Shown: in pieces, positions 12,026-14,083 of the stretch | Position numbering within the stretch: the first letter of the stretch is position 1 | Layout of the letters: every line of letters begins with the position of its first letter | Assembly: GCF_006345805.1 (NCBI RefSeq) | Contig: NC_042998.1 | Span: 194,680,001 to 194,744,000, forward strand | Source: Octopus sinensis | Taxonomy: Eukaryota | Reading direction: 5' to 3' | DNA length: 64,000 nt | Program-made: the position numbers

Positions 12026-14083
12026 TATATAGTTATGGTATATTCTGTTAAGATCATAGTAGAGTACAGCATAAAGCTTAGCCACCTTCAGATTNNNNNN
12101 NNNNNNNNNNNNNNNNNNNNNNNNNNNNNNNNNNNNNNNNNNNNNNNNNNNNNNNNNNNNNNNNNNNNNNNNNNNNNNNNNNNNNNNNNNNNNNAAAGAG
12201 AGAGAGAAAGTTAATGCTTGTGTAGGTATGAGAGAGTGGGGAGACTCAAATCGTGAGAGGGAGAGAGCACGAGGGAGAGTGAGAGAGCGCGAGGGAGAGT
12301 GAGAGAGCGCGAGGGAGAGGGAGAGAGCGCGAGGGAGAGGGAGAGAGCGCGAGGGAGAGGGAGAGAGCGCGAGGGAGAGGGAGAGAGCGCGCGGAGAGGG
12401 AGAGAGCGCGAGGAAGAGGGAGAGAGCGCGAGGAAGAGGGAGAGAGCGCGAGGAAGAGGGAGCTAGAGAGCGAGGAAGAGGGAGCTAGAGAGGGAGGAAG
12501 GGGGAGCTAGAGAGGGAGGAAGGGGGAGCTAGAGAGGGAGGAAGAGGGAGCTAGAGAGGGAGAAGAGGAGCTAGAGAGGGGGAGAGGGAGATAGAGAGGG
12601 AGGAAGAGGGAGATAGAGAGGGAGGAAGAGGGAGATAGAGAGGGAGGAAGAGGGAGATAGAGAGGGAGGAAGAGGGAGATAGAGAGGGAGGAAGAGGGAG
12701 ATAGAGAGGGAGGAAGAGGGAGATAGAGAGGGAGGAAGAGGGAGATAGAGAGGGAGGAAGAGAGACGGATGAAGAGGGAAAAGAGAGAAGCGAGAGAAAT
12801 AGCGAGAGACTGAAGTGAGAGAGGAGGAGGGAAGACAGAAAGAGAGGAAGAAAAGCTGGAAGGAGAAGAGAAGGAGGGAGAAAGATAGAGGGAGAAAGAA
12901 AGAGGGAGAGAAAGAGGAGATAGGGGTCAGAACTTTGAGCGAGAGCGAGGGAAGAAAAAGACGGATGAAGAGAAGAGAGGGAAGGAGAAAGAAAGAGAGA
13001 GAGAGAAAGAGAGAGAGACTGAGGTCAGAAGTTCCTTGATTCTAAGCCAGGATCCAAAACTGAATCTTGCATTTCTCTTACCAGTTCCTTTAGTTCCGAC
13101 TTTGCTGAACTTGAACGAACTGATTTATTCTTCCAAACTTTCCTTGCTGTTAAATCAGCATAGTTTTTCATTGATGGGAGTTTGTTTTCAACCTTTGAAT
13201 ATTTTCAACCTTTGAATTAAGCGACCCACGCAGTTCAGCCCAAACAATAAAGACAAAACAAATTTTCGGAAACATTTTTATTAATCGTCTTATATTCTTA
13301 ATTCCACGTGCGGTAAGCAATAATGGCCAACTTAAGAAGCGAAAGTCCTAGAGATGTTAAATTGTCTCATTTTTGTGAAGTCGCAAAAGCCAACCGAGAA
13401 CTATTTTTATAGAAAATAGTTTCTAATTCACTTCTGTCGTCTTCATCGTCGCCTCCTTCGGCCGCCCCTCCTTCGTCTTCGCCTTCTCCCCCTCCTTCGT
13501 CCCCTCCTTCGCCCCCTCCTTCGTCCTCTCCTCCTCCCCCTTCTTCCTCTCGATCGTCGCCGTCGTCGTCGCCGTCGTCCACCAATGGAATACACTCGTC
13601 TACGACTTAATCTGCCTCCGTTAAAACTACCATGACTTCTCACACTGGATAAACTGCGCTCTCGTCTTCCGCCACCGACCAGCAGACTCTGCCGGCTCAT
13701 GGATGGGCGTATTGCTCTACGCGTCCTCGAACGCGATGCGTTTTCTTTAACAATCATCCTTGTGTCTGTCGTCACTCAAGGCTTCCGAAAGTGTCTCACC
13801 CCTCTCTCTCTCTATTGCAGCGAAAGTTAGAGCAAGATTGAAAATCGGTACGACTATGAAGTAACTCGCCGAAAGTCGTGTTTTATATAAGGTATGTGTA
13901 GCACGTGATCTGCCAGATCAAAGATATTATTGGTTGAAAAGAAAGGTCACGTGACAGGAATGGTACATTGATATTCCCATTTCCAGACACTTACCTGGCA
14001 CAGGGGTAAACCATGATCACCATACAGACACACGTTCGCAATCGTATACACACACATGTACACGCTCACACACACACACACGT

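What the first reader, a model, noticed from the sequence alone, without database searches (positions are those of the whole stretch)
13255..13960. Complete intronless protamine-precursor gene hidden among low-complexity ORFs
Seen in sequence: a 104-aa ORF with its own TATA/CCAAT/E-box promoter, a good start context and a poly(A) signal, ending in a 44-aa domain of 35 Arg, 8 Gly and 1 Ser built from 12-nt GGR-CGA-AGG-AGG (GRRR) units. From memory (unverified): Octopus vulgaris sperm protamines Po1 (56 aa) and Po2 (44 aa) were defined by protein sequencing, and the last 56 and 44 residues here (starting at 13613 and 13577) have exactly those lengths. Inference: this is their gene, revealing a further 48-aa pro-region not seen in mature sperm protein. 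Small low-complexity genes like this are easily masked or missed in annotation.
Basis: partly seen in the sequence, partly recalled or inferred. Interest (0 to 1): 0.85.

Follow-up and report, generated by a model that had tools for sequence, protein, structure and literature searches.

The report
Candidate sperm protamine precursor gene
A small single-exon gene that most likely encodes an arginine-rich sperm DNA-packing protein (a protamine) made as a longer precursor; it is a credible but ordinary member of a known kind, and its claimed identity with sequenced octopus protamines could not be checked.

Summary
On the minus strand, ATG 13757 to TGA 13443 is a 104-aa ORF. Its last 44 residues are 35 Arg, 8 Gly and 1 Ser, built on a 12-nt GRRR unit.

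It is more than a low-complexity accident. The Arg tract is unique in the window: 35/44, against 18/44 for the next best. Only the Arg frame is open across the 60 non-repeat codons. That half is itself Arg/Ser-rich; 0 of 20000 dinucleotide shuffles were both open and as rich. Of 22 departures from the repeat unit, 17 are synonymous in the Arg frame, against 3 and 0 in the other two frames (P about 1e-5). The locus has the highest CpG observed/expected of the 706-bp windows scored.

It meets the compositional definition of a protamine, and Gly-Gly|Arg junctions precede the last 74, 56 and 44 residues.

Not shown: any homology (Pfam, PDB and Atlas were empty or compositional), expression, the species, and the recalled Po1/Po2 lengths. 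Verdict: a probable cephalopod-type protamine precursor gene, a new member of a known kind, of moderate interest.

The parts
13858..13960 (-). Putative core and proximal promoter. It holds the 10-bp perfect palindrome containing CACGTG (13955-13946), CCAAT (13933-13929), a second CACGTG (13907-13902) and the TATA box (13889-13881).
   Evidence: Read directly. Motif positions come and the palindrome. Three of the window's 6 CACGTG sites lie between 13305 and 13953 (binomial P 2.6e-5, confounded by the local CpG richness).
13758..13857 (-). Inferred 5' UTR of about 100 nt. The inferred start is near the A at 13857, 32 nt after the first base of the TATA box. It contains no ATG.
   Evidence: ATG list. 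The transcription start is inferred from spacing only; there are no transcript data.
13443..13757 (-). Coding sequence of 104 codons plus the TGA stop: the candidate protamine precursor. It has 49 R, 16 G, 13 S, 0 C and 1 K, a computed mass of 12.7 kDa and a computed pI at the top of the scale (12.0).
13614..13757 (-). Residues 1-48, the proposed pro-region. It is non-repetitive and Arg/Ser-rich, and holds Gly-Gly|Arg junctions after residues 30 and 48.
   Evidence: AlphaFold2 gives pLDDT below 50 over most of it.
13578..13613 (-). Residues 49-60, the stretch between the proposed 56-aa and 44-aa N-termini. It ends in Gly-Gly immediately before the Arg run.
13446..13577 (-). Residues 61-104, the Arg core: 35 R, 8 G, 1 S (79.5% Arg, 6.0 kDa). 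An eight-Arg CGA/CGG run is followed by units of the GRRR type.
13242..13442 (-). Inferred 3' UTR and cleavage region: AATAAA at 13282-13277 and a U/GU-rich run at 13262-13242.
   Evidence: The cleavage site itself is inferred.

Best explanation
The locus is a single-exon, TATA-driven gene for a protamine-type sperm nuclear basic protein made as a 104-aa precursor.

Proposed mechanism (inferred):
- The mRNA of about 0.6 kb is made in spermatids.
- The Ser/Arg-rich, disordered N-terminal part acts as a removable, probably phosphorylatable leader.
- The leader is trimmed stepwise at Gly-Gly|Arg junctions after residues 30, 48 and 60. This leaves nested products of 74, 56 and 44 residues.
- The about 80% Arg core neutralises DNA phosphates and condenses sperm chromatin in place of histones.

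Shown: the ORF, its composition, the frame-specific constraint, and the promoter and poly(A) layout.
Inferred: testis expression, cleavage sites, function, and which species it belongs to.
For: 1. Anatomy. A TATA box is followed by the first ATG, 104 codons, AATAAA and a U-rich tract, with no ATG in the leader.

2. Uniqueness. 35 R in 44 residues, against 18 for the next best stretch in six frames of 64 kb.

3. Frame. Only the Arg frame is open across the 60 non-repeat codons. The other two minus-strand frames carry 4 and 5 stops in that stretch (seen also in the wider read).

4. The non-repeat half is itself 14 R and 12 S of 60, and uses all six Arg codons. Among 20000 dinucleotide-preserving shuffles, 3.4% were open, 0.03% reached R+S of at least 26, and 0 did both.

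5. In the repeat, 22 of 105 bases depart from the 12-nt unit. In the Arg frame 17 are synonymous, 5 are Gly/Arg swaps and none is a stop. In the other two frames the synonymous/non-synonymous split is 3/17 and 0/20. 31% synonymous is expected, giving a binomial P of 9.6e-6.

6. CpG observed/expected is 1.39 over 13255-13960, against 0.41 for the window. The 706-bp window starting at 13201 scores highest of all 706-bp windows stepped by 100 bases (1.44). The locus holds 51 of the window's 989 CpGs in 1.1% of its length.

7. The product meets the published descriptors of protamines. These are up to about 80% Arg, 3-10 kDa, pI of at least 12, Arg clusters, and N-terminal precursor cleavage in both invertebrates and vertebrates. 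I saw them as passages of PMC11607694 and PMC12216123. Here the 44-aa core is 79.5% Arg and 6.0 kDa.

8. There is no globular fold. AlphaFold2 gives pLDDT below 50 for most of residues 1-48 and a single helix for the Arg tail.
Against: - No homology evidence of any kind: Pfam 0 families at E up to 10, PDB 0, and an Atlas best score of 0.79 to bacterial CotG-like basic proteins, which is compositional and below the tool's lead threshold.
- No expression data and no orthologues.
- The promoter/ORF/poly(A) arrangement alone arises in 8 of 100 random windows.
- The repeat mismatches are not independent events, because units can be copied after they change. The Arg codon family is unusually well connected by single changes. 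So the P value is optimistic.
- CpG richness in the coding part is partly forced by the CGA codons.
- The stop is TGA between Arg codons, and four more codons run to the next in-frame stop. The exact C-terminus, and so the 44 and 56 counts, may not hold in relatives.
- The AlphaFold2 helix is a single-sequence prediction for poly-Arg and carries little weight.
Confidence: 0.65

Rival explanations
1. It is a real member of a protamine gene family, but a paralogue or a recently inactivated or unexpressed copy, not the source of the main sperm protamines.
For: Only one copy lies in this 64-kb window, and nothing outside the window could be examined. The stop is a TGA between Arg codons, with four more codons before the next in-frame stop. 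That would fit a recent truncation.
Against: The ORF is intact. The frame-specific synonymous excess, the intact promoter and poly(A) layout, and the absence of a poly(A) tail remnant after the signal all argue for a maintained gene.
Confidence: 0.15
2. It is an exon or small gene for a somatic Arg/Ser-rich or Arg/Gly-rich nucleic-acid-binding protein of the RS- or RGG-domain type, unrelated to sperm chromatin.
For: The N-terminal half is Ser/Arg-rich and the tail is Arg/Gly-rich. There are no expression data.
Against: An Arg share of 79.5% over 44 residues, with no aromatic or acidic residues there, is beyond what I recall for RS or RGG domains. The unit has its own TATA box, first ATG, stop and poly(A) signal. 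No RNA-binding or other domain was found.
Confidence: 0.08
3. It is not a gene. A degenerate purine-rich minisatellite happens to adjoin an open frame and some common AT-rich motifs.
For: The surroundings are full of low-complexity ORFs. A 764-bp GA-rich satellite lies at 12255-13018. Repeats are open in all three frames. TATA-like strings occur about 4 per kb per strand and AATAAA about 0.9. 8 of 100 simulated windows give the bare arrangement.
Against: 0 of 20000 shuffles of the non-repeat half were both open and as Arg/Ser-rich. The synonymous/non-synonymous split is 17/5 in one frame only. The CpG island covers the non-repeat parts as well. The neighbouring satellite is on the opposite strand sense and has a different unit.
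Confidence: 0.08
4. It is a basic DNA-condensing protein gene of viral or mobile-element origin, protamine-like in the manner of the baculovirus P6.9 named in the abstract listing of PMC12159748.
For: Arg-rich packaging proteins exist in large DNA viruses.
Against: No viral gene was recognised within 10 kb. The neighbours are microsatellites and a three-finger C2H2 ORF. Pfam gave no hit to any viral basic-protein family. The only virus-like material I saw is reverse-transcriptase-type fragments far from the locus.
Confidence: 0.03

Closest known systems
Squid (Loligo opalescens) protamine and its gene (Lewis et al. 2004, J Mol Evol 58:673). Known to me here only through passages of PMC12216123 and PMC11607694; the paper itself is not held.
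   Same: It is an invertebrate (cephalopod) protamine with up to about 80% Arg, made as a precursor whose N-terminal part is cleaved during spermiogenesis. The core here is 79.5% Arg and follows a non-repeat leader.
   Different: No sequence comparison was possible. Leader length, cleavage site and gene structure of the squid gene were not visible to me. Whether the leaders are homologous is unknown.
Octopus vulgaris sperm protamines Po1 and Po2
   Same: If the recalled lengths of 56 and 44 residues are right, both N-termini would fall immediately after a Gly-Gly and before Arg in this ORF.
   Different: Names, lengths and sequences are unverified. The species of the window is unknown.
Eledone cirrhosa cysteine-rich protamine (Gimenez-Bonafe et al. 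2002). Seen only as a citation and one sentence; the paper is not held.
   Same: An octopod sperm protamine with Arg clusters.
   Different: That protamine is described as cysteine-rich and forms inter-protamine disulphides. The ORF here has 0 Cys.
Mammalian protamine P2 precursor
   Same: It is synthesised as a precursor and trimmed at the N-terminus through several intermediates. I saw this only as titles in the reference list of PMC3710222. It parallels the nested 74/56/44 products proposed here.
   Different: There was no Pfam match to any mammalian protamine family. From recall, mammalian P2 is Cys/His-rich and its gene has an intron. This ORF has 0 Cys and 1 His, and appears to be a single exon.

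Membership tests
Protamines (P-type sperm nuclear basic proteins), as described in PMC11607694 and PMC12216123 | Very high arginine content (up to about 80%) with arginine clusters | tested here: met
   The last 44 residues are 79.5% Arg, the last 56 are 69.6%, and there is a run of eight Arg.
Protamines (P-type sperm nuclear basic proteins), as described in PMC11607694 and PMC12216123 | Small size (3-10 kDa) and pI of at least 12 | tested here: met
   The predicted products are 6.0, 7.4 and 9.4 kDa. Computed pI is at the scale maximum of 12.0. The uncut 104-aa form is 12.7 kDa.
Protamines (P-type sperm nuclear basic proteins), as described in PMC11607694 and PMC12216123 | Made in spermatids, replaces histones, and is present in mature sperm nuclei | not testable with these tools
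   No expression or protein data were available.
Cephalopod protamine precursors (squid; cuttlefish from recall) | An N-terminal leader removed by cleavage during spermiogenesis | tested here: inconclusive
   A 48-60 residue non-repeat, disordered, Ser/Arg-rich leader with three Gly-Gly|Arg junctions is present. Cleavage itself is not shown.
Cephalopod protamine precursors (squid; cuttlefish from recall) | Sequence homology to a named cephalopod protamine | not testable with these tools
   No named relative came back from Pfam, PDB or the Atlas. No comparator sequence was available from a tool.
Octopus vulgaris Po1/Po2 | Identity of sequence and length (56 and 44 residues) with the sequenced sperm proteins | not testable with these tools
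No held paper gives them, and the 14-residue string search found 0 papers.
Pfam-defined protamine families (vertebrate P1, P2 and others) | A match to a curated profile | tested here: not met
   0 families at E up to 10. HMMER's composition filters make this a weak negative for a protein like this one.

The most novel reading that the evidence does not exclude
One gene yields a nested series of sperm protamines (74, then 56, then 44 residues) by successive cuts at a simple repeated Gly-Gly|Arg junction. This would point to a defined recognition site for the protamine-maturing protease. From recall, that enzyme is still unidentified even for mammalian P2. If so, the question becomes directly testable by mass spectrometry of spermatid and sperm nuclear extracts.
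Probability: 0.25. Interest if true: 0.5.

Novelty: new member of a known kind. Interest (0 to 1): 0.35.

Why it matters
Protamine genes are tiny, low-complexity and fast-evolving, so repeat masking and gene finders routinely lose them. A located gene would give the full precursor, including the leader that protein sequencing of mature sperm cannot see, along with its promoter and its processing sites. That would allow comparison of protamine maturation and of Arg-codon usage across cephalopods. It would also provide a clean marker for late spermatids. It does not change what is known about how protamines work.

Tried and rejected
Searches that found nothing useful:
- Pfam on the ORF: 0 families.
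- PDB sequence search: 0.
- ESM Atlas on the ORF: best score 0.79, bacterial CotG-like, judged compositional.
- Rfam at gathering threshold: 0 matches. tRNA scan: 0 genes.
- Self-search of the window: no second copy. The only tblastn matches of the full protein are to the GA-rich satellite at 12235-13024, at 26-45% identity, and are compositional.

AlphaFold2 on the single sequence gave mean pLDDT 62 and one helix. I did not send this model to fold search, because a poly-Arg helix would give meaningless matches.

Literature:
- Eight searches found no held paper on octopus protamines.
- Passages read in PMC6341066, PMC10177507, PMC3547057, PMC12843107, PMC12210499 and PMC1253532 were irrelevant or were only citations.
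- Look-ups of PubMed ids 15461424 and 12113475 and of PMC384709 found nothing held.
The supplements of the Octopus maya testis transcriptome paper (PMC6341066) might list a matching transcript.

Not used:
- The single genome-contig scan, because that collection holds only bacteria and archaea.
- search_dna_similar, because its collections (phages, plasmids, E. coli) cannot hold this locus and its low-complexity filter is on.

Readings considered and rejected:
- The acidic (D/E/G) reading frame of the same repeat as the coding frame. It has no ATG, it is closed by stops upstream of the repeat, and it shows a 3/17 synonymous/non-synonymous split.
- A processed retrocopy. There is no A-run after the poly(A) signal and the locus has its own TATA promoter.

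Full report
**1. What is there**

Read on the minus strand, 13960-13242 has the layout of a small complete gene. In order it holds:
- a 10-bp perfect palindrome containing CACGTG (13955-13946)
- CCAAT (13933-13929)
- a second CACGTG (13907-13902)
- a TATA box (13889-13881)
- a roughly 100-nt leader without any ATG
- an ATG at 13757, with A at -3 and A at +4
- 104 codons and a TGA at 13445-13443
- a roughly 160-nt trailer, AATAAA at 13282-13277, and a U/GU-rich run at 13262-13242

The protein has 49 Arg, 16 Gly, 13 Ser, no Cys and one Lys. Its last 44 residues are 35 Arg, 8 Gly and 1 Ser, first codon at 13577. Tandem Repeats Finder reports period 12 and its multiples 24 and 48 over 13446-13579. 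In phase, the majority unit reads Gly-Arg-Arg-Arg.

**2. Is it more than chance?**

The window is an AT-rich (38.7% G+C), repeat-laden animal sequence. Microsatellites generate many long meaningless ORFs, so caution is right.

The bare arrangement TATA, first ATG, ORF of at least 80 aa, poly(A) signal is weak evidence. It occurs at 3 loci in the window, two of which are microsatellite artefacts, and in 8 of 100 Markov-1 simulated windows. An open run of at least 66 codons is found at 7% of codon positions here, or 1-2.5% from base composition.

Four other results carry the weight:
- The Arg tract is unique. It has 35 Arg in 44 residues, against 18 for the next best stop-free stretch in any frame.
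- Only the Arg frame is open over the 60 non-repeat codons. The other two minus-strand frames have 4 and 5 stops there (also seen in the wider read).
- The non-repeat half is itself 14 Arg and 12 Ser of 60, and uses all six Arg codons. Of 20000 dinucleotide-preserving shuffles, 3.4% stayed open, 0.03% reached Arg+Ser of at least 26, and none did both.
- Within the repeat, 22 of 105 bases depart from the 12-nt unit. In the Arg frame 17 are synonymous and the other 5 are Gly/Arg swaps, with no stop. In the other two frames the split is 3/17 and 0/20. With 31% synonymous expected, P is about 1e-5.

That P value is optimistic. Repeat units can be copied after they change, and the six Arg codons are linked by single steps. 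Even so, the contrast between frames is the kind of signal that protein-level constraint leaves.

In addition, the 706-bp window starting at 13201 has the highest CpG observed/expected of all 706-bp windows scored (1.44). The locus itself, 13255-13960, scores 1.39 against 0.41 for the window overall, and holds 51 of 989 CpGs in 1.1% of the length. The non-repeat coding part scores 1.41. Three of the window's six CACGTG sites lie in the locus, though that is partly the same CpG effect.

**3. What it most likely is and how it would work**

Passages of two papers from the Ausio laboratory describe protamines this way:
- small (3-10 kDa), with up to about 80% Arg as in the squid Loligo opalescens, and bearing Arg clusters (PMC11607694)
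- pI of at least 12, and commonly made as precursors whose N-terminal domain is cleaved during spermiogenesis, in invertebrates and vertebrates alike (PMC12216123)

The ORF's C-terminal 44 residues are 79.5% Arg and 6.0 kDa. The last 56 are 69.6% Arg and 7.4 kDa. Computed pI is at the top of the scale.

AlphaFold2, run on the single sequence, gives no fold. pLDDT is below 50 for most of residues 1-48, and the Arg tail is one helix that should not be trusted.

One fact of the sequence stands out. Gly-Gly followed by Arg occurs four times, ending at residues 30, 48, 60 and 99. The first three are exactly the junctions that would leave 74, 56 and 44 residues.

My best explanation has these steps, all inferred:
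- The gene is transcribed in spermatids.
- The precursor's Ser/Arg-rich leader is removed stepwise at the Gly-Gly|Arg junctions.
- The Arg core condenses sperm DNA.

Stepwise trimming has a known parallel in the mouse P2 precursor, which I saw only as titles in the reference list of PMC3710222.

**4. What could not be shown**

Pfam gave 0 families and PDB gave 0. The Atlas best score was 0.79, to bacterial CotG-like basic proteins, which is compositional.

The remaining contig collection holds only bacteria and archaea. So conservation in other octopods, annotation status and copy number are unchecked.

The species is not established. The only named host gene I could recognise is a TREX1-like exonuclease, which says 'animal' and no more.

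The recalled Octopus vulgaris Po1/Po2 lengths remain recall. Eight literature searches found nothing. The primary cephalopod papers are not held. Supplements are closed.

Both recalled lengths land on Gly-Gly|Arg junctions. For lengths chosen blind, this would be unlikely: 4 such junctions among 103 boundaries, so roughly 1 in 900 for two boundaries by my own arithmetic.

**5. Comparison with what is known**

- It works like the squid protamine precursor and, more loosely, like the mammalian P2 precursor.
- It differs from the Eledone cirrhosa protamine, which is described as cysteine-rich. This ORF has no Cys.
- Membership in the compositional class 'protamine' is met on content, size, charge and clusters.
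- Membership by descent in the cephalopod protamine family, and identity with Po1/Po2, could not be tested.
- The label I attach from memory to the 10-bp palindrome (a CLEAR/USF-type E-box) comes from no call.

**6.

The locus lies between a 764-bp GA-rich satellite (12255-13018, opposite purine strand, different unit) and a CA/TG microsatellite (14048-14130). A 100-N run lies at 12095-12194 and I left it alone.

The only virus-like material I met is reverse-transcriptase-type retroelement debris well away from the locus. I describe it only by outer bounds. I did not analyse its breaks and built nothing from it.

I took no contig for human.

The TREX1-like gene looks spliced. Its two exon-like pieces were searched one by one, and the joined step was left out.

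**7. Verdict**

This is a real, self-contained and probably functional protamine-precursor gene of the cephalopod type (confidence about 0.65). It is a new member of a known kind. Interest is moderate. The useful points are the unseen leader and the regular Gly-Gly|Arg junctions, which make the processing directly testable by descriptive proteomics.

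Noticed in passing
window 55032-55709 (-) and 59501-59833 (-); CpG-rich zone about 59300-60200: Two exon-like open stretches of a TREX1-like DEDDh 3' exonuclease gene on the minus strand. The 226-aa piece scores 0.92 in the Atlas to 'three-prime repair exonuclease 1-like' but had no Pfam hit. The upstream piece matches the start of Pfam RNase_T weakly (E 0.0028, below the cut-off) and sits in the window's second CpG-rich zone. 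The pieces were searched separately and not joined.
   Followed up: partly
window 14351-14842 (+): An ORF with three C2H2-type zinc fingers (KIN17-type finger E 9.5e-7), partly overlain by a GTAT microsatellite. It starts about 390 bp beyond the candidate promoter, on the opposite strand. I suspect a transposon-derived or zinc-finger gene fragment; that origin is from recall and untested.
   Followed up: partly
window 1433-1738 (-); about 44570-45800 (+); about 46550-48470 (-); 24680-25370 (both strands): Fragments that read like reverse-transcriptase-bearing retroelements. One has a weak Pfam RVT_1 match (E 6.6e-5, below the cut-off). Of the others, the pieces I sent to Pfam had no match, and I recognised them only by eye. 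Only short open stretches remain, so the genes look broken.
   Followed up: no
window 19475-19708 (+): A short open stretch that looks by eye like the C-terminal end of a Tc1/mariner-type transposase. Pfam gave no hit.
   Followed up: no
window 31180-31395, 34743-35144, 36014-36442, 48882-49234, 49670-50077, 50949-51311, 52641-52871, 57989-58228 (both strands): At least eight copies of an interspersed repeat whose translation shares a His-run followed by a conserved stretch. It looks like a SINE or other short mobile element. Pfam found nothing for the one copy tested (36011-36388).
   Followed up: no
window 13443-13445 and the next 15 bases downstream (-): The stop of the candidate gene is a TGA flanked by Arg codons. 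The frame then runs four more codons (Arg-Arg-Gln-Lys) to the next stop. The C-terminus may therefore differ by a few residues in relatives.
   Followed up: no
window 12255-13018 (+) and 12095-12194: A 764-bp GA-rich satellite with 22/44/66-nt periods lies next to a 100-N run. The N run was left untouched.
   Followed up: no
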